Source: a virus
Lineage: Duplodnaviria > Caudoviricetes
IMG/VR virus record: IMGVR_UViG_3300037991_005821
Location: 1 to 36,634 of that record
DNA length: 36,634 bases
Reading direction: 5' to 3' (one strand)
In this document: piece after piece, positions 1-36,468 of the stretch
Numbering within the stretch: the stretch's first letter is position 1
How the letters are laid out: each line of letters begins with the position of its first letter
Notes under the pieces: generated by a model
Told to the model about the DNA's origin: nothing
Database searches by the model: none
What the model saw: the letters and a program-made list of their open reading frames with translations, nothing else
Translations under genes and position numbers: made by a program

Positions 1-329
1 AAATCTCCTGCAGGTAAAAGCATAGTAACATATCTTATGTTAGTTGAGCCTCCGCCCAAATCTACTGCATTTGCATCATCAACATTTGAATTATTTTTCC
101 ATTCTTGAAATGTAAACTGCACTTCTGCAGGAACATCTCCCATATTATAAACACAAAATGCTTTTATAGAAGGAACTATAGCAGTACCCTTAGTTCCACT
201 TACAGACAATAAATTTATAAAACCATCTGTATTATCTACTTCTTGTGTATTTTCAAATACTTGATTAAAATTTTTGCTTTTACTAAAAGCATTTCTCCCT
301 AAACTTAAATTTACATTAACATTTGCCAT
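1..329 (-). CDS. Partial (5' part) divergent allele of the 517-aa virion structural protein at 34915-36468
   Basis: ATG at 329 after a GAGGAG SD; reads MANVNVNLSLGRNAFSKSKNF..., colinear with the 36468 gene; truncated by the window edge. Confidence 0.9.
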   Translation of the reverse strand, partial: MANVNVNLSLGRNAFSKSKNFNQVFENTQEVDNTDGFINLLSVSGTKGTAIVPSIKAFCVYNMGDVPAEVQFTFQEWKNNSNVDDANAVDLGGGSTNIRYVTMLLPAGD

Positions 330-11768: not shown

Positions 11769-12414
11769 TTTCTGCCTCTACTATGCTTTGTTCCCACTCT
11801 TTTCTTTGTGCAGGAGTAGGTCGTCTGCCTTTAAGGGGCTTAATTCCAACCTTTTCTGCTCTCAACCTCCACTCTCTCCACAATTTCTGCTTTTGATTAT
11901 AAGCAGCCTTTCTTTCTTCATCTTTAATAGCTTTTCTATTACGAATATTCTCTTTCTTAGTTCTTTCTATCTGATTCTCTACAACTCTTTCAGGTAAATC
12001 ACTAAAGTCATCATCAACACTTTCAGCAACATCTATTATATCTTCATCTTCTACCACCTCAGCATTTTCCATACCTTTCAAGAACTTTTCAAAAGGACTG
12101 TCTATAGTAACATTTATATTCTTCACTAGCTTACCACTATGCTCCAATACCAACCTTCCTGCTTGCACATTTCCTGCTTGAGCTTCCCTTACCATAGCAT
12201 TTAAAACACTTGGTAACTGCGAACCAAACTCAACCATATACCTATCATAAATAGCATCTATGAAGTTAGGATCTTCTCGCCATTGCAACACAGACTTCTT
12301 AGTAACACCCAACTTGTCAGCAACCTGTTGCACAGTTATTTGAGGGTTAAATGCAAATAAGTCTATAGCTAGTATTTTTGAGGGTTTTTTCTTCTTCTTT
12401 ATAATATCTGTCAT
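11755..12414 (-). CDS. Terminase small subunit-like HTH protein (phBC6A51-like)
   Basis: N-terminal HTH TVQQVADKLGVTKKSVLQWREDPNF followed by the AQAGNVQAGRLVLE helix typical of TerS. Confidence 0.65.
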   Translation of the reverse strand: MTDIIKKKKKPSKILAIDLFAFNPQITVQQVADKLGVTKKSVLQWREDPNFIDAIYDRYMVEFGSQLPSVLNAMVREAQAGNVQAGRLVLEHSGKLVKNINVTIDSPFEKFLKGMENAEVVEDEDIIDVAESVDDDFSDLPERVVENQIERTKKENIRNRKAIKDEERKAAYNQKQKLWREWRLRAEKVGIKPLKGRRPTPAQRKEWEQSIVEAENEKN

Positions 12415-12457
12415 ATTTTATATAATATCGCCTTAAAACTATCAAATATCGCATTAC

Positions 12458-12486
12458 AATATAATACTATTTAAAGTTATTGTCAA
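12458..12486 (-). promoter_or_regulatory. Sigma70-type promoter for the TerS-like gene
   Basis: Perfect TTGACA (complement of 12481-86), 17-nt spacer, TATATT. Confidence 0.7.
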
Positions 12487-12588
12487 AGTTCTTATGAATT
12501 TTTCATTTGAAAGTTAATTTTCAATTTTTGTGTGGAATGTGAACCGAGAACTAATTAGAATCCTTATCCGCTTAGTCTCTGCCCTAAA

Positions 12589-12696
12589 TGAGAATGAGTC
12601 TCAGTTTCAAAATAAAAATAATTTAAAATATTTCTTGCTTTTTTAAAATATTCTTTTTGAGATTGAGTCTCAAGATCTAAATGAGACTGAGTCTCA
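12589..12696. promoter_or_regulatory. Three 15-bp pseudo-palindromes TGAGAnTGAGTCTCA (Fur-box-like or terminase-binding sites)
   Basis: 12589-12603 TGAGAATGAGTCTCA, 12658-12672 TGAGATTGAGTCTCA, 12682-12696 TGAGACTGAGTCTCA. Confidence 0.85.
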
Positions 12697-12909
12697 ATTA
12701 GAAAATAGATTGAATTAAATTAAAATATTACTTGCTTTTTAAATAAATTAAAATCAATCAAATTAGGCTGGATTTTTAAAAGTTAAATAAATTTAGGTAT
12801 GGTATAGAACACCCATTAAACAACCATATTTTAAACAAATAAACACTAAAAGAAGATTAAAAATTTTACCTTAAAAATAAACAAATAAACAAATTAAATA
12901 TTAGAATTA

Positions 12910-12940
12910 GATATCAAATAAATTTATTGATTTTGATATC
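12910..12940. repeat. Inverted repeat GATATCAAA-13nt-TTTGATATC
   Basis: Perfect 9-bp arms upstream of the cassette promoter. Confidence 0.6.
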
Positions 12941-13016
12941 ATTTTAACCCAAATAACACAAAATATTAAATATCATATCAATTTAAAAATAAAATAAAAA
13001 TAAAAATTTTTTTTTC

Positions 13017-13045
13017 TTGCATATCAATTACAATCTTTGTAAACT
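13017..13045 (+). promoter_or_regulatory. Strong sigma70-type early promoter with UP element
   Basis: TTGCAT-17-TAAACT preceded by A/T tracts, followed by a GAGG SD and the first cassette gene. Confidence 0.7.
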
Positions 13046-13075
13046 ATATCAATAAATAAACGAGGGTTAAAAATA

Positions 13076-13165
13076 ATGATAGAATATATATACATATTAT
13101 TATGGATAATTACATTTTTAAATTTAGGTTTTTTAATATGGACTTTAAACAAAGGAGTGAAATAA
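13076..13165 (+). CDS. 29-aa single-TM peptide (not in ORF track)
   Basis: MIEYIYILLWIITFLNLGFLIWTLNKGVK; GAGG SD; stop one base before the next ATG. Confidence 0.65.
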   Translation: MIEYIYILLWIITFLNLGFLIWTLNKGVK

Positions 13166-13166
13166 G

Positions 13167-13376
13167 ATGAATAATGAAATAAAAAATAAAATTATAACAA
13201 ATATTTATAATGATTTTAAATTAAATTTTGATGATATGTGTAATAACTACGACCAAAACCAAATATTTTATAATGAAATAAATAAATTTTATGACATATC
13301 AAAATTGACACAGAAAGATTTTGATATTATTAATGAATGTTTTGAAGCATATATAATTAAATATACATTAAAATAA
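13167..13376 (+). CDS. AT-rich cassette hypothetical protein (69 aa)
   Basis: AAGGAG SD; first codons ATGAATAATGAAATAA are shared with the 14345 gene. Confidence 0.75.
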   Translation: MNNEIKNKIITNIYNDFKLNFDDMCNNYDQNQIFYNEINKFYDISKLTQKDFDIINECFEAYIIKYTLK

Positions 13377-13391
13377 GGGGTAAAATAAAAA

Positions 13392-13550
13392 ATGAATAAA
13401 ACAATTAAGAGAGTTGAAATGCTAGATAAGGAACAATTAGAAACTATAATAATTAAACTTATTAAAGCACAAAGAACAAGAAATAAAACTATTAACCTAA
13501 TTAATGAAGAATTTAACAATTCATTAGGTGAAGCAACACTTAAAATATAA
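13392..13550 (+). CDS. AT-rich cassette hypothetical protein (52 aa; not in ORF track)
   Basis: MNKTIKRVEMLDKEQLETIIIKL...; preceded by a variant repeat TAAAATAAGGGGTAAAATAAAAAATG. Confidence 0.7.
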   Translation: MNKTIKRVEMLDKEQLETIIIKLIKAQRTRNKTINLINEEFNNSLGEATLKI

Positions 13551-13568
13551 AATAAGGAATAAAATAAA

Positions 13569-14315
13569 ATGAAATTATTAAGTAAACCTACAACAAATTA
13601 TAAAGCAAATAAAAATATAAAACTCGGATATCATACCTATTTTTTAAGTTTGGCTCATAGTGATATAAGTGGATATAATGTTTGCCCCATGGCTAACAAA
13701 TTAAAAGCTAAAGAAAATAATAAAAATAAATCAAGTTGTAGCTCTGTGTGTGTAGGTTATAATGGGTATGCTGGGATTTATAAATCTATTATGGAAGCAA
13801 GAGTAAGAAAAACTAAATTATTTTTTGAAAATAGAGATTTATTTTTTGAATATTTAATAAAAGATATTCAAAGTGCTATTAAATCAAGTACAAAAAAAGG
13901 TTTAATACCTACTTTTAGATTAAATAGTTATAGCGATATAAAATATGAAAATATAAAAGTAAATTATAATAATAAAGTATATAATAATATATTTGAGATA
14001 TTTCCAGATATAAAATTCTATGATTATAGTAAAATAGCTAATAGGATAACACCTAAAAATTATGAATTAACTTATTCTTATTATGGTAATAAAAAAGCAT
14101 TAAATAATGAAATAACAAATAAAAATGTTGCTATTGTTTTTGATCTTTTACCTAAAAAATATAAAAATAAAATTGTTATTGATGGAGATAAAACCGATTT
14201 AAGGCTTAAAGATAATGATGGTAAAAATGTTATTGTAGGTTTGAAATTTAAAGGTAGCAAAAAAGCATTAAAAGATGGAATTAATGAAGGTTTTGTAATT
14301 CCTGCAGGTATTTAA
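13569..14315 (+). CDS. GP88-family Cys-rich (putative Fe-S) protein
   Basis: SGYNVCPMA...CSSVC, ARVRKTKLFF, FRLNSYSDI, FYDYSK, NVAIVF, IDGDKTDLR and VGLKFKG motif series. Confidence 0.75.
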   Translation: MKLLSKPTTNYKANKNIKLGYHTYFLSLAHSDISGYNVCPMANKLKAKENNKNKSSCSSVCVGYNGYAGIYKSIMEARVRKTKLFFENRDLFFEYLIKDIQSAIKSSTKKGLIPTFRLNSYSDIKYENIKVNYNNKVYNNIFEIFPDIKFYDYSKIANRITPKNYELTYSYYGNKKALNNEITNKNVAIVFDLLPKKYKNKIVIDGDKTDLRLKDNDGKNVIVGLKFKGSKKALKDGINEGFVIPAGI

Positions 14316-14344
14316 ATTTTTAATAAAATAAGGAATAAAATAAA

Positions 14345-14719
14345 ATGAATAATGAAATAAGAGAACTTAACAAAAATATAATTAATGATACTACAAAATA
14401 TTACAATTTTGCAGATATTAGTTATGGAAATGATTTATGTGATTCTATAGGTTTTGAACTTGTTAAGGAATGGAGATTATATTTTCAAATATTTTTAACA
14501 AATTCTAAAAATAATAATTATGATAATGAAGAATTTAATACCTATCAAATTCTTTTAATTGATTATTATGGTAATGATTTAATAGAATATTGCGAATTTT
14601 TTAAAGAAGCTAATAGTTATAAAGATGAGGAATTACAATTTGATAATATAGAAGATGCGATAAGTTTTGTACTAAGTAATAAAGATATAAATAATTATAA
14701 TAAATTTTTAATAAAATAA
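14345..14719 (+). CDS. AT-rich cassette hypothetical protein (124 aa)
   Basis: Bounded by repeats on both sides. Confidence 0.8.
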   Translation: MNNEIRELNKNIINDTTKYYNFADISYGNDLCDSIGFELVKEWRLYFQIFLTNSKNNNYDNEEFNTYQILLIDYYGNDLIEYCEFFKEANSYKDEELQFDNIEDAISFVLSNKDINNYNKFLIK

Positions 14720-14732
14720 GGAATAAAATAAA

Positions 14733-15110
14733 ATGAATAAAAATATGTTTAAAAATGAATTAAATAAAAAATGTTTATTTGAAGATAAATTTTTAATTGA
14801 TGAAGTTAATGATAATGATATTAATATAAATAAATTATATAATGAATTTATAAAATTTAGAAGTTCACTTGAAATTATGACATCTAAGGAATATGGTAAA
14901 AAATATTCAAGATTTGAATTTGTTCAAGATATTAAAGAATTTACTTTATATAATTATAATGGATGTTTTATTGAATATAATAAAAATCCTAGAAAATTTT
15001 ATGTACCATTATATAATAGTGGATTTGAAGGTATTTTATCAGATTGTGAAATATATTTATTTATACATTTTTATATATATGAATGTATTGGATTAGATAA
15101 TTTAAAATAA
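14733..15110 (+). CDS. AT-rich cassette hypothetical protein (125 aa)
   Basis: Bounded by repeats on both sides. Confidence 0.8.
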   Translation: MNKNMFKNELNKKCLFEDKFLIDEVNDNDININKLYNEFIKFRSSLEIMTSKEYGKKYSRFEFVQDIKEFTLYNYNGCFIEYNKNPRKFYVPLYNSGFEGILSDCEIYLFIHFYIYECIGLDNLK

Positions 15111-15133
15111 AATAAAATAAGGAATAAAATAAA

Positions 15134-15412
15134 ATGAATAATAATAGTTATAGGTATAACCATTCTTTAAATGATATTAATTACAGGTATATAGTACAAA
15201 TTAAAAAAGATAATAATATTATAAATAAATCAGTTAAAATAGATTATTTAAAATTAGTTGATTTATTAGAATTAAAAAAAGATGATTTAAACATTGATTA
15301 TAAAGAAGGTAATACAAGACAATTAATGTTATTACAAAATTTATTATTAAAAACTAAAGCATTAAATATTATAAAATGCAATGTTTATATAAATGATGAT
15401 ATAATATTATAA
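15134..15412 (+). CDS. AT-rich cassette hypothetical protein (92 aa)
   Basis: Starts within the fourth repeat. Confidence 0.75.
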   Translation: MNNNSYRYNHSLNDINYRYIVQIKKDNNIINKSVKIDYLKLVDLLELKKDDLNIDYKEGNTRQLMLLQNLLLKTKALNIIKCNVYINDDIIL

Positions 15413-15564
15413 TGATTCCAGATCAAGATTTTTTAAGTAGAATTTTAGAATTTAAACTATTATTTAATATAAGTTGTTATATCTGGATAATTATATTACT
15501 GATATTATATTTTATAATAGATAATTTAATTGATGTTATAATAATAAAAATGGAGAGAAAATGA
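15412..15564 (+). CDS. 50-aa single-TM peptide (not in ORF track)
   Basis: MIPDQDFLSRILEFKLLFNISCYIWIIILLILYFII...; TAATG coupling. Confidence 0.55.
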   Translation: MIPDQDFLSRILEFKLLFNISCYIWIIILLILYFIIDNLIDVIIIKMERK

Positions 15565-15713
15565 AAAATAAAAAGTTACAAGAAGAATTAATATATGCTA
15601 TAAAAAATTGTTATTCTAGTGATGTATTGATTGATTTATATGATTTAATTGTAGATTTTGATACTAATTCAAAAACAAGTAGTTTAAAAGAATTTATAAA
15701 AAATTATAAATGA
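15561..15713 (+). CDS. 50-aa hypothetical protein (not in ORF track)
   Basis: GGAG SD, ATGA overlap; MKNKKLQEELIYAIKNC... Confidence 0.65.
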   Translation: MKNKKLQEELIYAIKNCYSSDVLIDLYDLIVDFDTNSKTSSLKEFIKNYK

Positions 15714-15738
15714 TTAATTATATATTATTATATATATT

Positions 15739-16011
15739 CTATTATATCCTTTATATCCAGAATAGCAGTATCCTTCCCCCTGATAATAATCAAGAAGTTA
15801 GATCTGCTATTATATCCTTCATAGAGCCATTTAATAGCAATTATAACCAGTATCAGTTATAATATGGACAGCCATTCTACAATAATATACTATCGCCTGA
15901 GAAAGTATTCTGTCTGTTTATCTACTTTGAGCCATGTACTCAGATCCCCCTTTTTGTGTGGCTCTTTTATAAATCCCTGTACCAAAAAGTATTTAACCAA
16001 AAAATACAGGG
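15739..16011 (-). ncRNA. Candidate structured non-coding RNA (or origin-like element)
   Basis: Four consecutive inverted repeats, a 13-bp direct repeat, seven minus-strand GGA motifs; lies just downstream of a minus-strand promoter. Confidence 0.45.
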
Positions 16012-16015
16012 CTAT

Positions 16016-16044
16016 ATTATACACATTATATTTGAATTATGCAA
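16016..16044 (-). promoter_or_regulatory. Sigma70-type promoter facing the non-coding hairpin region
   Basis: TTGCAT (complement of 16039-44), 17-nt spacer, perfect TATAAT (complement of 16016-21). Confidence 0.65.
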
Positions 16045-16142
16045 ATTTATATTATATTTACAAGAAAATAAAAAAAAGTTTTGAATAATGAAAATTATTA
16101 TTTATATTTTAGTATTAGATTTTAATTACATAGGAGAAAGTC

Positions 16143-16370
16143 GTGAATAACATAAAAGAAGTTATATTAAAGTCAGGATTAAGAGCCAATCATATTGCAG
16201 AGCAAGTTGGAGTATCTAAAACTGATATATCTAATTATATTGCAGAAAATAGAACACCAAATCATGAAAGATTATTAAAAATGTGTAAAGTTTTAGGTTG
16301 CACCATTAATGATTTATACCCAAATGCAAAGAGAGTTGTAACTTATGACTTGGGAGTTGGAAATGAGTAA
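16143..16370 (+). CDS. XRE/Cro-family HTH regulator
   Basis: IAEQVGVSKTDISNY...RTP...KMCKVLGCTINDLY; AGGAG SD with GTG start. Confidence 0.9.
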   Translation: MNNIKEVILKSGLRANHIAEQVGVSKTDISNYIAENRTPNHERLLKMCKVLGCTINDLYPNAKRVVTYDLGVGNE

Positions 16371-16515
16371 GCCAGATAAAGATCATTACATAGAAGAATT
16401 AGAAGGTTTAATTAAATATCAATTCGCTTATAATCTTATGATGAAATACTGGAGTTATATTCCTGATGAAGATAAGCAAGAAGTTGATAGAGAATTAAAA
16501 AAGATGGGTTTATAA
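16363..16515 (+). CDS. 50-aa hypothetical protein (not in ORF track)
   Basis: GGAG SD; MSKPDKDHYIEELEGLIKY... Confidence 0.65.
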   Translation: MSKPDKDHYIEELEGLIKYQFAYNLMMKYWSYIPDEDKQEVDRELKKMGL

Positions 16516-16521
16516 ATAACA

Positions 16522-16704
16522 ATGGAGAATAAAATGACAAATAAAAAGCAAATAAACAAGGTTAGCAAAGCAGAATGTGAAGATGCTTTGGATTATTTTT
16601 GGCAAACTATGGATTTAGATTGCGAATCTGATAAGGTTCTTTATACAAAAATATTAATGAAAAAAGTAGCAAATTATTGTAATATAAAGTTGGAGGGAAT
16701 TTAA
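16522..16704 (+). CDS. Hypothetical protein (about 56-60 aa)
   Basis: Operon packing; probable start at the second Met after GGAG. Confidence 0.65.
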   Translation: MENKMTNKKQINKVSKAECEDALDYFWQTMDLDCESDKVLYTKILMKKVANYCNIKLEGI

Positions 16705-16705
16705 A

Positions 16706-17143
16706 ATGACAAATAAAAAAGAAAGTATATATAATAAATTATATAAAGTCCAGAGTGAGATTGGGGCAATCAGTAAAGATTCTACTAACCCATTCTACAA
16801 ATCAAAGTATTTTGATATAAATTCCTTAATTAAACAAGTTACCCCTATACTAGAAAAACATAAGCTATTATTATTGCAACCTATTAAAGATGGCGAGCAA
16901 TATAGTATTATATTTGATTTAGATGGTGGCTCTGTTGAATCATCATTAAAACTACCTACTGATTTAGATGCACAAAAAATAGGATCAGCAATAACATATT
17001 ACAGAAGATATACATTACAATCATTATTAGGGTTACAAGCAGAAGATGATGATGGTAATGTTGCATCAGGTAAACATAACTACAAAAAAGGCACAAACGA
17101 AGGCAATATATCTAGTTTTGAGTCTGATGGGTTTGGAGTATAG
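16706..17143 (+). CDS. erf: ERF-family ssDNA annealing protein
   Basis: NPFYKSKY and AQKIGSAITYYRRYTLQSLLGLQAEDDDGN signatures. Confidence 0.9.
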   Translation: MTNKKESIYNKLYKVQSEIGAISKDSTNPFYKSKYFDINSLIKQVTPILEKHKLLLLQPIKDGEQYSIIFDLDGGSVESSLKLPTDLDAQKIGSAITYYRRYTLQSLLGLQAEDDDGNVASGKHNYKKGTNEGNISSFESDGFGV

Positions 17144-17152
17144 TATGGTAGA

Positions 17153-17650
17153 TTGGATAATATTTTTTGGAATAATAATAATAGCAGGAACACTAGCAAC
17201 AGAACTATGAACCATACTGAAAATTATAATAAAAGAAATGCTTTTGATTTAGCTGAGAATAAGTGTGTTGAGTTTTTAGAAAATAAAGGGATTGATTACA
17301 GAAGATTGGGATTTGAACAAAACAATGATCCAATACCAGTTAAAGACTTTATAAAGATTCCTAACACATTAAGAAGTATGCCTGACTTTATAATTTTTCA
17401 AAGTGTTCCTGTATTTGTAGAGGTCAAAGGTTGTAAGGATATACTAAGGCTCAAGGACTCAGATACAATGTCTTACAAGTTCTGGAGTAAACTTCTCCCA
17501 CTAACACTATTTGTATATTCAAGCACCTTTGACTCTTACAAACTTATACCTTTAAAAAAGATTTTAGAATTGCTACCTTACTGCGAAACAGATAGGTATC
17601 ATGATAATAATAAGTTATATTATAAAATAAAATGGGAAATGATAAAATGA
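17153..17650 (+). CDS. PD-(D/E)xK nuclease
   Basis: RSMPDFII...FVEVKG; the true start may be the internal Met (MNHTENY). Confidence 0.75.
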   Translation: MDNIFWNNNNSRNTSNRTMNHTENYNKRNAFDLAENKCVEFLENKGIDYRRLGFEQNNDPIPVKDFIKIPNTLRSMPDFIIFQSVPVFVEVKGCKDILRLKDSDTMSYKFWSKLLPLTLFVYSSTFDSYKLIPLKKILELLPYCETDRYHDNNKLYYKIKWEMIK

Positions 17651-17826
17651 TAAAAGAAATGAAATGTCATATCAATGACGAGTTCTACTTCTTCCTTAAT
17701 TGGTTAGCAGATGAGAAATCATTTAGTGCTAGAGAGATTGCTGAAGTTGCTAGATACTACTGGAAGTATGAAAAACAATGGAAACAATATTTAGAGGAGG
17801 TGTCAGATGCAATCGAGTGTTACTGA
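17632..17826 (+). CDS. Hypothetical protein
   Basis: Operon packing. Confidence 0.6.
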   Translation: MGNDKMIKEMKCHINDEFYFFLNWLADEKSFSAREIAEVARYYWKYEKQWKQYLEEVSDAIECY

Positions 17827-17974
17827 TTTTTATGAAGAAGAATGGTATAGTATTTGTTGTAATGCACCACCATTATATGAACTTTGTATAGATACTAGTG
17901 TTCCCCTGCAGATTGGATTATGTATGAATTGTAGAGATCATTCAGTATTCGAGTTAGACAATGAGAGTGAGTGA
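17807..17974 (+). CDS. Small zinc-ribbon protein (55 aa; not in ORF track)
   Basis: GAGGAGG SD; SICCNAP...CMNCRDH. Confidence 0.7.
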   Translation: MQSSVTDFYEEEWYSICCNAPPLYELCIDTSVPLQIGLCMNCRDHSVFELDNESE

Positions 17975-18122
17975 GTATATAAATTGGATTACAAGAACAG
18001 ATATCGGTATGGCTGTAAATCCTAAGCCTTATGATTATACTCACCTAACACCAAAAATGTTAGATAAAAGGGCAAGATATTTGTATCAATGTAAGTTAAA
18101 AGGGAAAAAACCAGTAAAATGA
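17961..18122 (+). CDS. 53-aa hypothetical protein (not in ORF track)
   Basis: MRVSEYINWITRTDIG...; overlaps both neighbours. Confidence 0.55.
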   Translation: MRVSEYINWITRTDIGMAVNPKPYDYTHLTPKMLDKRARYLYQCKLKGKKPVK

Positions 18123-18188
18123 AATTAGAATATTATAGATGCAGTAAATGTAAAAAACAATGTCATAATAAAAGGACTTGTAAAAAAT

Positions 18189-18629
18189 ATGATAAAAGAC
18201 AATATGCACAGAACTAAAGAAGGCATTAAAAAAAAATTAGAGAGAGATAGGGATAGGATTAATTGTCCAATTTATTTAAACAGAAGAAAAGAATTGCACA
18301 AAAAAGATCCAAGAATAAGAATGAGAGAGGGAGCAAGAAGAAGAGCAATAAAGAAAAATCTTGCTTTTGAATTATATACATATAAAGATGTTCCTAAAAT
18401 TCCTAAACATTGTCCAATTTACAAAATTCCTTTATTTGTAGGAGTTGGTGTTGCAACAGACAATTCTCCTTCTTTGGATAGAATAGATAATGATAAAGGT
18501 TATATAAAGGGAAATTTGCAAATTATATCAAGAAAAGCAAATCAAATGAAAAGTAATGGAAATTTTAAAGATATAGAAATGTTATATAAATACATGAAAA
18601 AACAAAGGAGAAAGAATGTCAAACTATGA
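18189..18629 (+). CDS. HNH-family endonuclease
   Basis: CPIYKIPL...SPSLDRIDNDKGYIKGNLQIISRKANQMK. Confidence 0.8.
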   Translation: MIKDNMHRTKEGIKKKLERDRDRINCPIYLNRRKELHKKDPRIRMREGARRRAIKKNLAFELYTYKDVPKIPKHCPIYKIPLFVGVGVATDNSPSLDRIDNDKGYIKGNLQIISRKANQMKSNGNFKDIEMLYKYMKKQRRKNVKL

Positions 18630-18879
18630 TAATAATAATACTGGTGTATTATTTAGACAAACTGACAAACAAAGTGATAAACATCCAGACTTTACAGGCA
18701 ACTGCGAAGTTAATGGTAAAAAAATGCAAATTGCATCTTGGATTAATACTTCTAAAGATGGTTCTAAAAAATATATGAGCCTTAAATTTAGTGAGTTTAA
18801 GCCAAAAGAAGAATCTGTTAGTGCATCAAACACAGATAGTGTAAGTGCTACAGGTAGTGTGGATGAGATCCCATTCTAA
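18616..18879 (+). CDS. Phage ssDNA-binding protein (DUF736-like)
   Basis: GVLF...KHPDFTG...ASW...YMSL and an SSB-type acidic tail DEIPF. Confidence 0.7.
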   Translation: MSNYDNNNTGVLFRQTDKQSDKHPDFTGNCEVNGKKMQIASWINTSKDGSKKYMSLKFSEFKPKEESVSASNTDSVSATGSVDEIPF

Positions 18880-19043
18880 TGAACGACAAGAAGTGCAAAA
18901 TGTGTAATGTTGTTTTAAGCAAATTAAATGCAAAAAAATATAATGGGTATTATAATTCCTATTGTAAAAAATGTGATGCTAAAAAACAAAGAGCATATTA
19001 TGCTGAAAGAAAAAAGAAACAACAAGCGAGTAAGTGGTTTTGA
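18879..19043 (+). CDS. Small CxxC-CxxC zinc finger (54 aa; not in ORF track)
   Basis: KKCKMC...SYCKKC; TAATG and TGATG coupling. Confidence 0.7.
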   Translation: MNDKKCKMCNVVLSKLNAKKYNGYYNSYCKKCDAKKQRAYYAERKKKQQASKWF

Positions 19044-19522
19044 TGTTTCTTGAAGTCAAAGTAAGAGTGAATGGCGAGGAGAAATGGGTTGATGCTCGAA
19101 AGTTTTTTGATTACTTAGTCAAAGAATATAGCAAGGTTAGCTATCAAGGAAAGAGTGTTGACCCATATCCTGATAGAGTTAATAAGTTTTTTGATGAAAT
19201 GCCTGAAGAATTGATTGATATGTGGAGTAAAGCATATCCAAATGTAAATATAAAAGCAGAATGCGAGAAAGCCAGAGCATGGCTTCTTACAAACACTAAT
19301 AAAGCTAAAAAAGATTTTAAAGGGTTTACTAATCGTTGGCTTGGTAGAGCCTGTAATAATGGTGGGCAAACTATTATAAAAGTTGATAAGATTTATGAAC
19401 AACAACAAAGACAAGTGGAATATCAAAGAGAAATGGAAAAGAATAGTGCTACTGATGAAGAAAGAGAAGAAGCAATTAAATCAATTAAAGAAATGTTAAA
19501 AAAGAGAAGAATAAATGGATAA
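19034..19522 (+). CDS. Putative replication initiator / replisome-organiser-like protein
   Basis: WSKAYPNVNIKAECEKARAWL...KKDFKGFTNRWL resembles the C-terminal domain of phage initiators; probable start at ATG 19043. Confidence 0.55.
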   Translation: MVLMFLEVKVRVNGEEKWVDARKFFDYLVKEYSKVSYQGKSVDPYPDRVNKFFDEMPEELIDMWSKAYPNVNIKAECEKARAWLLTNTNKAKKDFKGFTNRWLGRACNNGGQTIIKVDKIYEQQQRQVEYQREMEKNSATDEEREEAIKSIKEMLKKRRING

Positions 19523-19730
19523 AGATACAAGAGAGTTAATAGAAGAAGCTAGGTTCAATTTAGAAATTGCTAGAAAAGATAATGAAGTTTTAAATAAAAA
19601 AATAAGTATTGCAATTCAAGGCTTAGAAGTCATAATTTCTATGGGCGACTCAATGATTGAATCAGTTGCTCAACAAACACTTCAAGAAATGCAGAATTGT
19701 GATCAAAATTCATCACAGGAAGAAGAATAA
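19515..19730 (+). CDS. Hypothetical protein (71 aa)
   Basis: Operon packing. Confidence 0.6.
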   Translation: MDKDTRELIEEARFNLEIARKDNEVLNKKISIAIQGLEVIISMGDSMIESVAQQTLQEMQNCDQNSSQEEE

Positions 19731-19786
19731 AGATAGTCGGATTTTTATTTTTTAAATGAGTATGTCAATCTCATCTGTGATGATAT

Positions 19787-19886
19787 GGGAGTTTTGGAAC
19801 ATAAGGTTCTTATTTTAATAGGGGGTTGCAAGTCCTCCTTTCATTTTATTCCCCCTTATGCAGAGGTTCGATTCCTCTGACTCCCA
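19787..19886 (+). ncRNA. tRNA-like RNA (canonical acceptor and T arms, non-canonical body)
   Basis: 7-bp GGGAGTT/GACTCCC acceptor stem plus discriminator A; T arm AGAGG-TTCGATT-CCTCT; no encoded CCA; 100 nt. Confidence 0.7.
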
Positions 19887-19907
19887 CAAACATAACAAGG
19901 AGAAAAA

Positions 19908-19994
19908 ATGTCCTCATCAGATATATTACTCTACCTTCTTATGATAGTAATAGCGATAGTCATGTATAGGAGTCATAATGAACAGAAGCGATAA
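19908..19994 (+). CDS. 28-aa single-TM peptide (not in ORF track)
   Basis: AAGGAG SD; MSSSDILLYLLMIVIAIVMYRSHNEQKR. Confidence 0.65.
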   Translation: MSSSDILLYLLMIVIAIVMYRSHNEQKR

Positions 19995-20187
19995 AGATAT
20001 GATTATAAAACTATACAAAAATATGTATTTTTATTATCTTGAGAATGTAGGCAAAAGATCAGAAATAACAGGTATGTTAATAACCCCAAGAAGAATATCC
20101 AGAGTATTAGAAAGAATTTTAGAATTAGGTGGAGAAATTCCAACCGAGCCTTATGAAGTGTGTTGGGAAGAAATCACTAAAGTGTAA
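19978..20187 (+). CDS. Hypothetical protein (69 aa)
   Basis: AGGAG SD. Confidence 0.7.
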   Translation: MNRSDKDMIIKLYKNMYFYYLENVGKRSEITGMLITPRRISRVLERILELGGEIPTEPYEVCWEEITKV

Positions 20188-20362
20188 ATGTTGTTGTGAA
20201 TGGAAATATCATGCTCCATTCTATGAGTGGTATTCAATGGTTACAAAAGAGTTTATAGGCACTATTTGTCATAAATGTGCTATAAGAGAATTATTTGGAA
20301 CAAATTTCAAAGCAAATAAAAGGTATCATAGATGGTTAGAAAAAGTAAAAAAGTTATGGTAA
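20129..20362 (+). CDS. Small Cys-rich protein (putative zinc finger)
   Basis: CKCC...ICHKC; start position uncertain. Confidence 0.6.
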   Translation: MEKFQPSLMKCVGKKSLKCKCCCEWKYHAPFYEWYSMVTKEFIGTICHKCAIRELFGTNFKANKRYHRWLEKVKKLW

Positions 20363-20363
20363 T

Positions 20364-21026
20364 ATGAAGGTATTAGAATTGTTTGCAGGTTCTAGGAGTT
20401 TTAGCAAAGTTGCTGAAGAATTTGGATATGAAACTTATACTACTGACATAGAGCCATTTGAAAAAATAAATCAAGTTTGTAGTATATTTGATTTTAATAT
20501 CGACAAAATGTTGGATGAATTTGGTGCACCTGATATTATATGGGCATCTCCACCTTGCACAACATTTAGTGTTGCAAGCATAGGACATCATTGGAAAGGG
20601 GGAAATAGAGCATACATACCCAAAACAAAAGAAGCTGAAATTGGAATAAAAATAATTGAAGAAACTAATTGGCTTATTAAAATGTTAAATCCAAAATATT
20701 TTTATATTGAAAATCCAAGAGGGTTGTTAAGGAAATTACCTGTAATAACTAAAGAAAACTACATAAGGCATACGATTTGGTATTGTCAATACCATAACCC
20801 TGAAAAAGATAAAGTAAAAAGAGCAAAGCCAACTGACATATGGACTAATGATTATAAATGGAAGCCTAAGCCTGTATGCAAAAATGGTAATCCTGATTGT
20901 AATCATGAAAGAGCTCCAAGAGGAAGTAGGACAGGAACTCAAGGTTTGAAAGATAATTATGAAAGGAGTAAAGTTCCCTATGAGTTATGCAAAGATATAA
21001 TAAAAAATATTGAGAAAAATTTATGA
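20364..21026 (+). CDS. DNA cytosine-C5 methyltransferase (short phage type)
   Basis: Motif I LELFAGS, motif IV ASPPC, motif VI IENP. Confidence 0.88.
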   Translation: MKVLELFAGSRSFSKVAEEFGYETYTTDIEPFEKINQVCSIFDFNIDKMLDEFGAPDIIWASPPCTTFSVASIGHHWKGGNRAYIPKTKEAEIGIKIIEETNWLIKMLNPKYFYIENPRGLLRKLPVITKENYIRHTIWYCQYHNPEKDKVKRAKPTDIWTNDYKWKPKPVCKNGNPDCNHERAPRGSRTGTQGLKDNYERSKVPYELCKDIIKNIEKNL

Positions 21027-21163
21027 TTTGTAGTAAATGTAAAAAACAATTTAGAAAAAAAATGCTTGATGAAGCAGATGAAGCATTATTAAGATATAAT
21101 AAGAAGTTAAAAAAAATAATAAGGAAAGTTAAAAATGACACATCCAAGCAAACAAAAAGGTAA
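21023..21163 (+). CDS. 46-aa basic CxxC peptide (not in ORF track)
   Basis: ATGA overlap; MICSKCKKQFRKK... Confidence 0.5.
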   Translation: MICSKCKKQFRKKMLDEADEALLRYNKKLKKIIRKVKNDTSKQTKR

Positions 21164-21461
21164 TAGATTTGAAAGGTTGATTGTAGATAAAGCACAATCT
21201 TATGGGGTAGGTGCAGAAAGAGCTTGGGGTTCTAATGGTAGAGCTTTGGGTATGCACGAAGAAGTTGATGTTTTGCTTGAAGGCGATTTAAGAATACAGG
21301 CTAAATGTCGCAAAAAGATAGCAGAATGGCTAAAACCTTCAGAGGTTGTAGATGCAGTAGTAGTTAAGGAAGATCGTGGCGAAACCTACATTATAATTAG
21401 ATATGATGAATTTTTAGATGATTACAAGAAATTTTTAGAGTGGAAAGAAAATGAAAAATAG
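21135..21461 (+). CDS. Holliday junction resolvase (Hjc-like PD-(D/E)xK)
   Basis: SKQKGNRFER...VDV...IQAK. Confidence 0.75.
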   Translation: MTHPSKQKGNRFERLIVDKAQSYGVGAERAWGSNGRALGMHEEVDVLLEGDLRIQAKCRKKIAEWLKPSEVVDAVVVKEDRGETYIIIRYDEFLDDYKKFLEWKENEK

Positions 21462-22296
21462 TGATGTTTTTAAAAAATATGCTAAAGGTGATATAGATGC
21501 ACCATTAAAAGTAATATCTTTAGGTATGGGTGTACAATCAACTGCATTATATTTAATGAGCAGTATAGGTTATAAAGTTCCTAGGGCAGATTATGCTATA
21601 TTCGCTGATCCTCAAGCAGAACATTATAAAACTTATAAATTATTAGATTGGCTCTTAGACTGGAAAGAAAAGAATAATGGCATTGAAATTATAATTAATA
21701 GAGATAAAAATATATTAACAGATATATTAAAATCTCAAAATTCAAGAGGTGTAAAATGGACTACTATACCTGCTTTTAGTGAAAGTGGGGGTATGGTGAT
21801 GAGGCAATGCACAGGAGAGTATAAAATATGGAGTGTTCAACAATCTGTGAGAAGGCTTCATGGTCTTGAAAAAAAGAAAAGAATGAAAAGAACTGAAATG
21901 TGGCTAGGTATATCTATTGATGAAATAGAAAGAATGAAAGAATCAAGGATGTATAATATTAAGTATTTTTATCCTTTAATATATCATAATTTAACAAGAA
22001 AAGATTGCATTGAATTTTTTAAAGATAATAATTTTCCTGTGCCTGTTAAATCATCTTGCACATTTTGTCCATTCCACTCTAATGATTACTGGAAAGAGAT
22101 TCAAAAAGAAAATGGAAAGGCTTGGAAAGAAGCTGTTGCAGTTGATAGACAGATTAGAAACTCAACAAAGAAAGGCGATAAAGATAAATTATACATACAC
22201 AACTCTTGCAAACCATTAGAAGATATAGACTTTGATGATGGTCAATTAGAAATGTTTGAAGGTTTTAATTGTGATGAGGGTTATTGTGGATTATAG
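21451..22296 (+). CDS. PAPS-reductase-like / adenine nucleotide alpha-hydrolase family protein
   Basis: VISLGMGVQST PP-loop-like motif, IFADP, RQCTGEYKI, WLGISIDE, KSSCTFCPFH, C-terminal CDEGYC. Confidence 0.8.
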   Translation: MKNSDVFKKYAKGDIDAPLKVISLGMGVQSTALYLMSSIGYKVPRADYAIFADPQAEHYKTYKLLDWLLDWKEKNNGIEIIINRDKNILTDILKSQNSRGVKWTTIPAFSESGGMVMRQCTGEYKIWSVQQSVRRLHGLEKKKRMKRTEMWLGISIDEIERMKESRMYNIKYFYPLIYHNLTRKDCIEFFKDNNFPVPVKSSCTFCPFHSNDYWKEIQKENGKAWKEAVAVDRQIRNSTKKGDKDKLYIHNSCKPLEDIDFDDGQLEMFEGFNCDEGYCGL

Positions 22297-22297
22297 T

Positions 22298-23377
22298 TTA
22301 CCAAACCTCTCGAATCTTCAGAGAAATCTCATAACTCTTAAAAGCTACTTGCTTAACAGATAAAGAATCCATATCAAACTTTGCTATGCAGAATTGGTCT
22401 GGATTGTTATTAGTTGAATCAGGTTGAAATATGAAAGGTAGAGCACCTCCTAGTGTTTTATTCCACACTTGAGCTATAAAAGAATCATCTGTAAAAATAT
22501 TATAATTAAATTCATTCTCAGTTATATCATCAGAATCATAACCATCAGAGTTTTCTACATAATTACTTTTCATATAATTAGATGAAAATACATCAGAATC
22601 TGATATATGTGTAAATTTCATACTCCAAATTCTTCTACCATTTCTTTTGCATCCTGATGTAACATTTTCATAATAACTACCAACACCAAAAGGCATTATT
22701 TTTTCATTGTTATTTTCCCAGTATGGAGCACCTGTATTTCTTATATTTACTATCTCAGAACCACCAAGAGTTTGAACAGAGTCAAATCCTCCCATTTCAA
22801 CATTCATAGTTATGTCTAGGTCTGGAGAGTTGGGCATAGTAAACATTACTCCCATACTAATTGCACCTAAATCAATACTTTCTATAGCATCTTCACTAGA
22901 TATTCTAAAACCACCATATTTCATAGTTTCTGTGGGAACAAGATCAGTAAACATAATAGTAGTTCCATCACTAACTTGGCTGTTTGCTTGAAAGTTTAAA
23001 ACAGATGTTGGATTTTCTTCTATTTCAAATTGTCCATTTAAAGCATCTGCAAATGTCAATCCAGTTATGTTATAATTGTTTGTTCCAAGTCTGTGATTAA
23101 GTATTGCACAATAAAACTTCATATTATTAGAATAGTCTATATCTTTAAAGTTGTTTATTGAATCAGATTGCTGTCCAAGAGGTATGTAAAAATCTAAAGT
23201 ATTTCCATTGCCTTGATATGCTTTCGCTCTCATACCATCCAATCCAAAAGCAATATCATAATCATCTGGAAAGTTATCTCCTGATGTGTAAGTATCAAAT
23301 TCTAGTCCACTTGCTCTTAAATATCTATAATTGTCTATAAAAAATCTTGGTGATCCACCTACATTTTGATAAGCCAT
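22298..23377 (-). CDS. Tail tip / distal-tail-like structural protein (359 aa)
   Basis: Last gene of the tail operon; acidic and beta-rich. Confidence 0.55.
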   Translation of the reverse strand: MAYQNVGGSPRFFIDNYRYLRASGLEFDTYTSGDNFPDDYDIAFGLDGMRAKAYQGNGNTLDFYIPLGQQSDSINNFKDIDYSNNMKFYCAILNHRLGTNNYNITGLTFADALNGQFEIEENPTSVLNFQANSQVSDGTTIMFTDLVPTETMKYGGFRISSEDAIESIDLGAISMGVMFTMPNSPDLDITMNVEMGGFDSVQTLGGSEIVNIRNTGAPYWENNNEKIMPFGVGSYYENVTSGCKRNGRRIWSMKFTHISDSDVFSSNYMKSNYVENSDGYDSDDITENEFNYNIFTDDSFIAQVWNKTLGGALPFIFQPDSTNNNPDQFCIAKFDMDSLSVKQVAFKSYEISLKIREVW

Positions 23378-34914: not shown

Positions 34915-36468
34915 TTAATTATAAGCTAAAATCTTAATAGTTGTATTTAATTTCGGATTTACACTTCTTGCACCTATTTGCTGTATTGTGTTTTTTCCAT
35001 TAGTGGTATTAGCATCTACACCTCCTGCATGAGCAGAAGAATGTATAACATTTAAAACAAAATTTGCATTAGGGAGTGAAGTAAATCTAATTTCTCCAGT
35101 TTCATAATTTATTCTACCAGTACCTGCTCCAATCAAATTACCTTGCCCATCATCATACATAAAGGCAGATTTGTTAGGAGAAGCATCATAAGTTTCTTTA
35201 TCATAAACTGTATCATCTGGAAGTTTTGCTGCAACTGCTGCCTCTACATTAGCAACAGCAGGAAATCTACCAACTCCCCAGACATCAGTATCACTTCCAC
35301 TTGAATCTGCTAGTGCTATAGCTGATGTAGATAAATGCTGCCCAGATGTAAATCTAACATCCCCATTTACAATTCCTACAGTAACTCTTTTCTCAAATAA
35401 ATTAGAGCTAGTTGTATAAAACTGTTGATTTAATACATCTTGTATTTTATTAATAACTCCATTTTTTCCACCAAAATTTGTATTAGAAGAATCTGTTGTA
35501 AACGATAAAGAATAAGCACTTCCACCATCTACTGTTATATTAAATTGATATGCAGTAGAGGCTGCTAAACCACTATTAGTATTTGGAGTTATTCCAGATA
35601 ATCCTAATTCTTGATAGCCTGCTTGATAAAATTTAATCCCTACAGAACCTGCTTGCACTCCATCAGATATTGCATCTCCTGTCCTTCCATATCCAAAAAA
35701 GTTTTTAGCATGAAAAACACCATTTTTATCAGTCTGTGCAGTAGAAAATTTATCAAAGTCTGCAACCATATTAAAGAATGGAAATAAGACATCATCATCA
35801 TCTGAATGGTCGCTTGCTGCTGTAGAGCCAAACAATCCCCTCTTAACTGTAAGTGTGCTATTGGCTAAGTCTGCACCTGTTCCAACAGCAGTTACTTCCA
35901 TTATTTCATTAGTACATCTAATTAAATCTCCAACCTTAAAATATTTTGAATGACCACTTTCTAAATAAACTGTAGTATCGCTTGCACTACCGACTATACC
36001 ACTTGCAGTTGTATTGTCTACATCAGCACCACTATCTACATACATATTAGAATTAGGTGCTGTATTATCTACAGTAGTAGCATTTGCTGCTGAGGCATCT
36101 GCATTGTATCCACAAAATCTACCATTTGGAAGATATATAAAATCACCTGCAGGCAAAAGAACAGTAGCATATCTTAAATTTGTAGAGCCTCCTCCAGTAT
36201 CTACTGCATTTGCATCATCTACATTTGAATTATTTTTCCATTCTTGATAAGTAAACTGCACTTCTGCAGGAACATCTCCTTCATTATAAATACAAAATGC
36301 TTTTAAAGAAGGAACTATAGAAGTGCCTTTTGTTGCACTTACACTAAGAATTGTTATAAATCCATCTGTATTATCTACTTCTTGTGTGTTTTCAAATACT
36401 TGATTAAAATTTTTGCTTTTACTAAAAGCATTTTGCCCTAAACTTAAATTTACATTAACATTTGCCAT
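34915..36468 (-). CDS. Virion structural protein (517 aa, multi-domain)
   Basis: Gly/Ser/Thr/Asn-rich; EIMEVT...LTVKRG and GRINYETG modules seen in virion proteins. Confidence 0.65.
   Translation of the reverse strand: MANVNVNLSLGQNAFSKSKNFNQVFENTQEVDNTDGFITILSVSATKGTSIVPSLKAFCIYNEGDVPAEVQFTYQEWKNNSNVDDANAVDTGGGSTNLRYATVLLPAGDFIYLPNGRFCGYNADASAANATTVDNTAPNSNMYVDSGADVDNTTASGIVGSASDTTVYLESGHSKYFKVGDLIRCTNEIMEVTAVGTGADLANSTLTVKRGLFGSTAASDHSDDDDVLFPFFNMVADFDKFSTAQTDKNGVFHAKNFFGYGRTGDAISDGVQAGSVGIKFYQAGYQELGLSGITPNTNSGLAASTAYQFNITVDGGSAYSLSFTTDSSNTNFGGKNGVINKIQDVLNQQFYTTSSNLFEKRVTVGIVNGDVRFTSGQHLSTSAIALADSSGSDTDVWGVGRFPAVANVEAAVAAKLPDDTVYDKETYDASPNKSAFMYDDGQGNLIGAGTGRINYETGEIRFTSLPNANFVLNVIHSSAHAGGVDANTTNGKNTIQQIGARSVNPKLNTTIKILAYN

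What the first reader, a model, noticed from the sequence alone, without database searches (positions are those of the whole stretch)
19787..19886. tRNA-like RNA carrying an anti-SD and a stretch antisense to the cassette start repeat
Seen: perfect acceptor stem and T arm, a minimal D-like hairpin (GAAC-ATAAG-GTTC), and a body with two alternative folds. One is GGGGG-TTGCAAG-TCCTC (weak anticodon arm, GCA = Cys). The other is GGGGG/CCCCC closing a 25-nt loop that contains CCTCCTTT (16S 3'-end-like anti-SD, 19834-41) and TTTCATTTTATT (19839-50). The latter is the exact complement of AATAAAATGAAA at the GP88-like start and matches the other three repeat starts over 11 nt; the adjacent CCTTAT complements ATAAGG of the repeat. 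Inference: a tRNA-scaffolded antisense regulator, made from the middle operon, that silences the cassette genes together or blocks host SD sites. Caveat: short AT-rich matches are weak evidence in this genome.
Basis: partly seen in the sequence, partly recalled or inferred. Interest (0 to 1): 0.75.

Follow-up and report, generated by a model that had tools for sequence, protein, structure and literature searches.

The report
tmRNA-derived phage antisense guide RNA
A group of uncultured phages carries a conserved tRNA-shaped RNA gene, likely a cut-down ribosome-rescue RNA (tmRNA), whose exposed loop is complementary to the start signals of the same phage's upstream genes and changes in step with them, so it likely shuts those genes off at translation (untested).

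Summary
The element is real, but it is not a Cys tRNA. Syntenic copies were found in 34 of 81 loci (21 distinct sequences). All share an acceptor stem, a stemless D loop, a P2 helix, a T arm and a non-CCA end (ACAA in 19 of 21). One homolog passes Rfam's tmRNA cutoff with 308 model positions replaced by 12 nt, so the scaffold is likely a tmRNA tRNA-like domain; the window copy has lost G3·U70. P2 ends in a pyrimidine-rich loop. Starts with a 9-nt or longer perfect complement to it: 34/123 upstream, 2/36 downstream, 1/169 late-type. The loop ranks in the top 0.3% of its own contig's 18-mers in 15 of 20 phages. It fits its own lineage's starts better than other lineages' (permutation 98/200000 by match length, 8871/200000 by energy). 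Some lineages keep the loop on a plain hairpin. Best reading: a trans-acting RNA that masks early/middle ribosome-binding sites (0.6). Expression, binding and the sign of the effect are untested; 5 of 20 phages do not fit.

The parts
19787..19889 (+). Whole tRNA-shaped RNA gene (tmRNA tRNA-like-domain architecture), ending A-CAA rather than A-CCA
   Evidence: identical in 4 of 4 viral contigs hit by the exact search
19787..19793 (+). Acceptor stem 5' strand GGGAGUU; pairs with 19879-19885; G3-C70 here (G3·U70 in 5 of 21 homologs)
   Evidence: two-sided changes at 3 of 6 acceptor pairs
19794..19799 (+). Stemless D loop UUGGAA containing GG
   Evidence: homologs show GGUUCG, GGUUUGA, GGCUUGA, GUGGU
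19800..19806 (+). P2 helix 5' strand CAUAAGG; pairs with 19854-19860
19807..19819 (+). 5' unpaired strand of the P2 loop; can pair 11 nt with the cassette SD region (-8.7 kcal/mol) but its sequence is not conserved
19820..19839 (+). Inner hairpin AGGGGG-UUGCAAGU-CCUCCU, present only in the window, L181/L182 and L187; predicted to hide CCUCCU; terminator-like together with the U run that follows
19839..19856 (+). Predicted guide UUUCAUUUUAUUCCCCCU, complementary to spacer + AUG (and weakly the SD) of upstream genes
19862..19878 (+). T arm AGAGG-UUCGAUU-CCUCU
   Evidence: two-sided changes at 4 of 5 pairs
19710..19783 (+). Long leader hairpin just upstream (TCATCACAGG 19710-19 / TCTGTGATGA 19774-83, with GTCGGA in the inner loop); candidate processing signal
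   Evidence: arms change together (TCATCACA/TGTGATGA, TTACCACA/TGTGGTAA, TGCCACAA/TTGTGGCA)
13547..13577 (+). Predicted target: start of the GP88-family gene 13569-14315 (12-nt perfect complement, -6 to +6)
14323..14353 (+). Predicted target: start of ORF 14345 (11 nt)
14711..14741 (+). Predicted target: start of ORF 14733 (11 nt)
15112..15142 (+). Predicted target: start of ORF 15134 (11 nt)
16512..16542 (+). Predicted target: start of ORF 16534 (11 nt); best duplex energy with the open strand
16684..16717 (+). Possible target: start of the Erf-like annealing gene 16706 (best energy with the longer guide; no 9-nt perfect run)
19034..19522 (+). Conserved upstream marker gene (162 aa, weakly like phage replication protein O) used to find relatives

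Best explanation
This is a conserved phage RNA gene with the shape of tmRNA's tRNA-like domain, likely derived from tmRNA, whose P2 helix ends in an open pyrimidine-rich loop complementary to the start regions of the phage's own upstream genes; it likely acts in trans to mask those ribosome-binding sites and would turn down early and middle protein synthesis as infection advances. Shown by sequence comparison: the fold, its compensatory changes, the tmRNA match of a homolog, the complementarity, its enrichment at upstream starts and its lineage-by-lineage fit. Inferred: (1) transcription as part of the middle operon, after the replication-type gene; (2) release from that transcript by host tRNA-processing nucleases (an RNase P-type 5' cut and 3' trimming), helped by the leader hairpin; (3) the tRNA-like top half serving as a stabilising scaffold, since several lineages replace it with a plain GC-closed hairpin carrying the same loop; (4) pairing of 9-13 nt over the SD, spacer or AUG in competition with the 30S subunit; (5) sparing of late genes because they mostly use GGAG/GAGG-type SDs and other spacers. 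'Early', 'middle' and 'late' are assigned from position and strand only.
For: Structure: 21 distinct syntenic homologs with two-sided pair changes in the acceptor (3 of 6), T stem (4 of 5) and P2 (5 of 5). Ancestry: L200 matches RF00023 tmRNA at 50.4 bits (cutoff 47, E 2e-17) with 308 model positions replaced by 12 nt; L130 matches weakly (19.4 bits) (8 loci searched). G3·U70 is present in 5 of 21. Loop: pyrimidine fraction 0.68-0.92; CCUUU in 19 of 21. A run of 8 nt or more identical to the 16S tail printed in PMC6288834 Table 1 is present in 13 of 21. Targets in 8 long genomes: perfect complement of 9 nt or more at 34/123 upstream starts, 2/36 downstream, 1/169 late-type. In the window 25 of 33 plus-strand 9-mer hits lie in start regions, which cover 1.4% of positions. 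Within-contig control: top 0.02% of 18-mers in the window (one other place scores as high; 0 of 747 pyrimidine-matched windows); best place in 8 of 20 phages; top 0.3% in 15 of 20. Cross-lineage test on 19 phages in 9 lineages: 98/200000 (longest complement), 164/200000 (share of starts with 9 nt or more). Examples: loop UUAUUAUUCCUUU with AAAGGAAUAAUAA starts; UUCCCUUUCUAUU with AAUAGAAAGGGAA; AUUCCUUUCUA with UAGAAAGGAAU. SD classes: AAGG(A/G)A(A/U) or GAAAGG in 40/113 upstream versus 11/129 late-type starts. Hairpin-only forms fall in several places on the marker-gene tree.
Against: No expression evidence: RNA contigs of 4 runs cover neighbouring genes but not the element (uninformative either way). 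5 of 20 phages fail the within-contig test (L132 score 0, L203 14%, L184 8%, L205 3.4%, L141 2.7%), and L203 is one of the most tmRNA-like. By duplex energy the lineage signal is weak (8871/200000), and some late-type starts in the window score as well as the cassette. Whole-RNA nested cofolding gains only 1-5 kcal/mol at 37 C (it cannot model loop pairing that keeps P2). Duplexes are short and AU-rich. Pairing in the T stem, acceptor pairs 1-5 and P2 was a selection rule, so only the two-sided changes count. Complementarity does not give the sign of the effect.
Confidence: 0.6

Rival explanations
1. General 16S-tail mimic: the loop copies the 3' end of 16S rRNA (UCCUUUCU) and blocks host mRNAs with AGAAAGG-type SDs, or soaks up a protein that binds the 16S tail. 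The match to phage starts would then follow from both resembling the tail.
For: 13 of 21 loops share 8-9 nt with GAUCACCUCCUUUCUA. CCUUU is in 19 of 21. L203 and L184 carry GUCCUUUCU loops yet match their own starts poorly.
Against: Lineage-specific flanks that are not 16S sequence (AUUAUU, CAUUUUAUU, CUAUU) track each phage's spacers. L126/L127 share only 4 nt with the tail, yet L127's loop is the best antisense in its contig. In the window CCUCCU is predicted paired.
Confidence: 0.13
2. TLD-only tmRNA decoy, as in phage DS6A: it binds SmpB or accepts alanine and interferes with trans-translation; the loop is only a cap.
For: L200 passes the Rfam tmRNA cutoff. 5 of 21 keep G3·U70, a tmRNA-type D loop, and GAC or UAC before the T arm. 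TLD-only RNAs are described and reported to inhibit tmRNA (PMC4131195, PMC11915505; passages). Other phages carry similar mini-tmRNAs.
Against: The window copy and 15 other homologs lack G3·U70, have short D loops and 0-1 nt (3 in L187) variable regions; 10 of 21 were segmented with only 6 acceptor pairs. Whole lineages drop the T arm but keep the loop. The DS6A element has a GC-rich stem cap, not a pyrimidine loop. It could still be a second role of the G3·U70 forms.
Confidence: 0.1
3. Positive or nuclease-guiding regulator: the same pairing stabilises or activates the upstream mRNAs, or recruits a nuclease to them, rather than simply blocking initiation.
For: All complementarity evidence is blind to sign. 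The tRNA-like shape could bring RNase P or other tRNA-binding factors to the duplex (inference).
Against: Matches lie over the SD, spacer and AUG (-18 to +6), where pairing normally excludes the 30S subunit (established knowledge; C4 and cuckoo RNAs). Plain-hairpin versions lack the tRNA-like part.
Confidence: 0.08
4. Cis element: a processing site, attenuator or RBS switch for the next gene of the middle operon.
For: The inner hairpin plus U run is terminator-like. The element sits between a conserved leader hairpin and the next RBS.
Against: 0 of 21 loops have a 9-nt complement to the next RBS (best 8). The terminator-like hairpin exists in 3 of 21 homologs; the scan found 2 overlapping hits at this one site against 1.5 expected by chance. 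It does not explain the fit to distant upstream starts.
Confidence: 0.06
5. Decayed tRNA or integration-site remnant with a chance AT-rich match, or an RBS and tiny ORF on the minus strand.
For: Weak tRNA score (22.7 bits; L187 30.3 bits). On the minus strand the window loop reads as an RBS + AUG of a 9-codon frame.
Against: Compensatory changes and G·U pairs on the + strand across three clades. No conserved anticodon. A minus-strand AUG is absent in 13 of 21, and frames are 1-25 codons where present. Background controls. No integrase among the 56 ORFs scanned against PHROGs.
Confidence: 0.03

Closest known systems
TLD-only tmRNA of mycobacteriophage DS6A, and CDS-less organellar tmRNAs (PMC4131195, PMC11915505; passages read)
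   Same: tmRNA tRNA-like domain without tag reading frame, in a phage; homolog L200 passes the RF00023 cutoff.
   Different: P2 ends in an open pyrimidine loop complementary to the phage's own starts; the DS6A element has a GC-rich stem cap. The window copy lacks G3·U70. Some lineages lose the T arm.
C4 antisense RNA of phages P1/P7 (PMC5320573, PMC12197685; passages read)
   Same: Small structured phage RNA, cut from a longer transcript by RNase P, whose loops pair over ribosome-binding regions, with loop sequence setting phage specificity. This is what the element is predicted to work like.
   Different: No Rfam C4 match. One guide loop on a tmRNA-type scaffold rather than three stem-loops with a'/b' loops. 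Many predicted targets in an early/middle regulon rather than the antirepressor mRNA.
Cuckoo RNAs (RSs0680/CcsR, NfeR1 group; PMC4615179, passages read)
   Same: Anti-SD-like pyrimidine motif shown in a loop on variable stems.
   Different: Cuckoo has 2-4 hairpins with constant CCUCCUCCC in alphaproteobacterial genomes; here there is one loop, a CCUUU core, lineage-variable flanks and a phage gene.
T4 RegB and RegA (PMC3014915; passages read)
   Same: Post-transcriptional shut-off of many early genes through a shared start-region motif.
   Different: RegB is a protein nuclease cutting GGAG and RegA a protein repressor; here the recognition would be by RNA pairing.
Engineered tRNA scaffold for RNA expression (PMC3753655; search listing only)
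   Same: An RNA payload placed where the anticodon arm would be, protected by a tRNA-like frame (principle recalled).
   Different: This one is natural and likely tmRNA-derived, and its payload changes together with phage targets.

Membership tests
tRNA (RF00005) | 7-bp acceptor stem and 5-bp T arm | tested here: met
   19787-93/19879-85 and 19862-78; 10 of 21 homologs were segmented with 6 acceptor pairs
tRNA (RF00005) | D stem-loop | tested here: not met
   The stemless fold is 4-9 kcal/mol better and the competing P2 helix covaries
tRNA (RF00005) | Anticodon arm with a 7-nt loop and conserved anticodon | tested here: not met
   Loops of 12-47 nt; TTGCAA in 2 of 21
tRNA (RF00005) | Score at or above the family cutoff, or an ARAGORN call | tested here: not met
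   22.7 against 29 bits; ARAGORN 0. Homolog L187 reaches 30.3
tmRNA (RF00023) | tRNA-like domain: acceptor, stemless D loop with GG, P2 helix, T arm | tested here: met
tmRNA (RF00023) | G3·U70 alanine identity pair | tested here: not met
   Window has G3-C70; met in 5 of 21 homologs
tmRNA (RF00023) | mRNA-like domain with tag reading frame and pseudoknots | tested here: not met
   P2 closes 12-47 nt; 308 model positions replaced by 12 nt in L200
tmRNA (RF00023) | Score at or above the family cutoff | tested here: not met
   Window: none at cutoff; L200 50.4 against 47 bits
TLD-only tmRNA (DS6A form) | SmpB binding, alanylation or inhibition of trans-translation | not testable with these tools
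   Needs biochemistry
C4 antisense RNA | Three stem-loops with a' and b' loops; Rfam match | tested here: not met
   No C4 match in the window or 8 related loci; different fold
C4 antisense RNA | Loop pairing over ribosome-binding regions of the phage's own mRNA, specific to the phage | tested here: inconclusive
   Complementarity and lineage fit shown; binding not tested; 5 of 20 fail
C4 antisense RNA | 5' end made by RNase P | not testable with these tools
   No raw reads over the element
Cuckoo RNA | 2-4 hairpins each with a CCUCCUCCC loop | tested here: not met
   Single loop; motif absent from the 21 segmented loops

The most novel reading that the evidence does not exclude
A phage captured tmRNA, cut it down to its tRNA-like domain and turned it into a natural programmable guide RNA. 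One loop, retuned in each lineage together with a private family of ribosome-binding sites, switches off the whole early/middle regulon by competing with the 16S tail: an RNA-only counterpart of T4 RegB. The clade preserves the full series from intact mini-tmRNA through degenerate tRNA shape to plain hairpin.
Probability: 0.45. Interest if true: 0.85.

Novelty: new variant of a known kind. Interest (0 to 1): 0.72.

Why it matters
How small phages time the shut-off of early genes, and why their early genes share repeated start motifs, is poorly understood. Here a repeated start motif has a matching RNA in the same genome, and the two change together across lineages. That gives a directly testable pair for compensatory mutagenesis. 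It would also be a case of tmRNA being reused as a scaffold for an antisense regulator. And it suggests that tRNA-like phage RNAs missed by ARAGORN and Rfam should be read for their loops, not their anticodons.

Tried and rejected
ARAGORN and Rfam at cutoff: nothing in the window; relaxed ARAGORN gave inconsistent labels on relatives. Cis pairing with the next gene's RBS: 0 of 21. Conserved minus-strand mini-ORF: rejected. A sigma-70 scan of 12300-22500 gave no excess over shuffles (84 against 78.7). The TGTGGTA(A)T motif before the RNA looked like an extended -10 box, but it is the 3' arm of a covarying hairpin and lies only 0-7 nt from the RNA's closing stem. Covariance model R1 was built on a wrong structure string and a misaligned T stem and was not used; pair counts come from a script instead. 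Expression: 4 RNA runs with small shares; their contigs cover neighbouring genes only, which shows nothing about the element. Host: no relative of the marker protein in GTDB genomes, only weak Pseudomonas phage hits in GenBank phages, no informative names among the 120 of 695 homologs listed; host unknown. A pattern scan of GTDB genomes gave 7 hits, none of this form by eye. Three outside mini-tmRNA-like RNAs with pyrimidine loops (L256, L282, L293) have at most 7-nt matches to their own starts, so the guide reading is not extended to them. Whole contigs were not available for the metagenome loci, so up to 10-kb flanks were used. Literature: 9 full-text searches showed no description of this RNA. 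In the IMG/VR candidate-RNA paper PMC10690425 I read passages and searched four supplements without a hit. Its alignment archives and PDFs could not be read, so the motif may be an unnamed candidate there. Subscription journals and bioRxiv supplements were not searched.

Full report
Setting. The window is a complete 36.6-kb AT-rich phage record. PHROGs finds terminase, major head protein and endolysin genes, and a + strand run of small genes from 13167 to 22296 with an HTH regulator, Erf, an HNH nuclease, SSB, a methyltransferase and RusA (56 ORFs scanned). The first genes of that run share a start repeat; one is GP88. The element lies in this run, after a 162-aa gene weakly like replication protein O and a 71-aa ORF. 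The host is unknown. A marine origin is likely: short RNA contigs from three runs labelled marine metagenome lie at 95% identity or more on neighbouring genes.

Observation. The 11-mer complement occurs four times on the + strand, all at cassette starts. ARAGORN and Rfam at cutoff are silent; tRNA scores 22.7 of 29 bits.

Relatives. The upstream protein found 28 and 31 viral loci (largely the same) and 50 metagenome loci. A structural pattern run on 81 loci found the tRNA-shaped RNA in 34 of them, as 21 distinct sequences; many of the rest are cut short or carry another form. All 21 segment into acceptor (6-7 bp), stemless D loop with GG, P2 (4-10 bp), loop (12-47 nt), T arm and a tail that is ACAA in 19. 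Two-sided pair changes occur at 3 of 6 acceptor, 4 of 5 T-stem and 5 of 5 P2 positions. Pairing itself was a selection rule, so only these changes are evidence. The inner hairpin is confined to 3 of 21 and its loop varies, which removes the Cys anticodon. Read by eye, other relatives (for example L134-L139, L141, L176, L190, L205, L210) have at the same place a plain GC-closed hairpin with a CCUUU loop and no T arm. On the marker-protein tree (35 rows) tRNA-shaped forms occur in three starred clades and hairpin forms in several places. This fits repeated loss of the T arm, though phage mosaicism could mimic it. A long leader hairpin just upstream also covaries.

Ancestry. Five homologs have G3·U70, a tmRNA-type D loop and GAC or UAC before the T arm. 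Of 8 related loci scanned, L200 passes the Rfam tmRNA cutoff (50.4 bits) with 308 model positions replaced by a 12-nt loop; L130 matches weakly and L187 matches tRNA at 30.3 bits. I infer that the scaffold is a tmRNA tRNA-like domain that has drifted in most lineages, including the window's. A TLD-only tmRNA is described for phage DS6A (PMC4131195, PMC11915505; passages). The matching DS6A element has a GC-rich stem cap and no pyrimidine loop.

The loop as a guide. Loops are 68-92% pyrimidine, 19 of 21 contain CCUUU, and 13 of 21 share 8-9 nt with the 16S tail GAUCACCUCCUUUCUA given in PMC6288834. Three tests used an 18-nt guide per phage and start regions (-22 to +9) from a simple gene caller. 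(a) In 8 long genomes a perfect complement of 9 nt or more is found at 34/123 starts within 7 kb upstream on the same strand, 2/36 downstream and 1/169 late-type starts; four of these genomes belong to one lineage and one (G002) has no match at all. (b) Against all + strand 18-mers of the same contig (those within 60 nt of the guide left out), the guide is the best place in 8 of 20 phages and in the top 0.3% in 15. In the window only one other place scores as high, and 0 of 747 pyrimidine-matched windows do. Five fail: L132, L203, L184, L205, L141. (c) Across 19 phages in 9 lineages that I defined, guides fit their own lineage's starts better than permuted ones: 98/200000 by longest complement, 164/200000 by share of starts, but only 8871/200000 by duplex energy. 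Lineages E (L203) and G (L132) do not fit. Phages without enough upstream sequence or without a CCUUU-type loop (L147/L148, L211, L222, L224) were left out of (b) and (c). The flanks that carry the fit are not 16S sequence. In the window's lineage the guide has moved from the SD to spacer + AUG. The next gene downstream is not a target (0 of 21). Upstream starts use AAGG(A/G)A(A/U) or GAAAGG more often than late-type starts (40/113 against 11/129, six genomes), which would let one RNA separate the two classes.

Against. No read covers the element. Duplexes are short: best own targets -14 to -18 kcal/mol at 37 C, medians -8 to -13; nested cofolding of the whole window RNA gains only 1-5 kcal/mol. 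By energy some late-type starts in the window rank with the cassette. Gene classes are inferred from position. The inner hairpin plus U run looks like a terminator, but it is not conserved.

Mechanism. Most likely the RNA is transcribed late in the early/middle operon, is freed by tRNA-processing nucleases, accumulates because of its tRNA-like shape, and pairs over the initiation regions of a subset of upstream genes (about a quarter of them), lowering their translation (0.6). Rivals: general 16S-tail mimic acting on host mRNAs or tail-binding proteins (0.13), SmpB decoy as in DS6A (0.10, mainly for the G3·U70 forms), positive or nuclease-guiding action (0.08), cis element (0.06), decay or chance (0.03).

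Known relatives and novelty. It is predicted to work like the C4 antisense RNA of P1/P7 (PMC5320573, PMC12197685; passages) and cuckoo RNAs (PMC4615179; passages), and to do the job of T4 RegB (PMC3014915; passages), but it is a member of none of these. It is built like a TLD-only tmRNA but the window copy fails G3·U70. Nine literature searches showed no description; the alignment supplements of PMC10690425 could not be read. Earlier AI notes of this scan describe other phage RNAs with anti-SD loops; they are unchecked here and are not used as support. What this case adds is a tmRNA ancestry and a lineage-by-lineage fit to named targets. Verdict: real, new variant of a known kind, interest 0.72.

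Noticed in passing
L360:3720-3799, L365:4605-4683, L366/L369, L386, L388, L346 group, L344 group: Other viral contigs carry about 80-nt mini-tmRNA-like RNAs (G3·U70, tmRNA-type D loop, P2 capped by a short hairpin, T arm, ACAA end) not called by ARAGORN; TLD-only RNAs appear more widespread in phages than the single DS6A case. The L344 group lies on 4-14 kb contigs.
   Followed up: partly
L256, L282, L293: Phages outside this clade with TLD-like RNAs whose P2 loop is pyrimidine-rich; no match above 7 nt to their own starts.
   Followed up: partly
window 19710-19783 and relatives: Covarying long leader hairpin over the stop codon of the upstream ORF, often with a GTCGGA or GGAG loop; candidate processing site.
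   Followed up: partly
window 19914-19920 and relatives: A CTCATCA motif recurs near the next gene's RBS, sometimes before it and sometimes inside the first codons; possible protein or RNA binding site.
   Followed up: no
L190:10730-10790, L195:2650-2705: An extra stem-loop is inserted before the guide hairpin; in L190 its loop is also U-rich (possible second guide).
   Followed up: no
L147/L148 upstream, L222, L224: Distant relatives carry different structured RNAs containing GCTGACCAC, at the same position (L222, L224) or in the early region (L147:459, after a T-arm-like hairpin).
   Followed up: no
window 19908-19994: 28-codon hydrophobic ORF with its own RBS right after the RNA.
   Followed up: no
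L002:5857-5930 and L179: A 70-nt insertion bounded by GCAAGG...CCTTGC directly 3' of the RNA in near-identical phages.
   Followed up: no
L008, L014, L030, L032, L043, L049, L053, L081, L096, L110 and others: Large phages with normal-looking tRNA halves whose anticodon arm is replaced by a hairpin plus ACAGCA motif; a separate class of odd tRNA-like RNAs.
   Followed up: no
window 12584-12626, 12677-12719: Two copies of a TGAGA(A/C)TGAGTCTCA palindrome-like motif in the long non-coding gap between terminase small subunit and the early cassette; possible packaging or origin site.
   Followed up: no
window 1-300 and 36140-36439: 87% identical 300-nt copies at the two ends; diverged duplicate or assembly overlap of two strains.
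   Followed up: no
G002 early region (seen output): Early genes of this relative are each preceded by GGGG...CCCC hairpins and an ACACAAC motif before the RBS; this phage's loop matches none of its starts.
   Followed up: no
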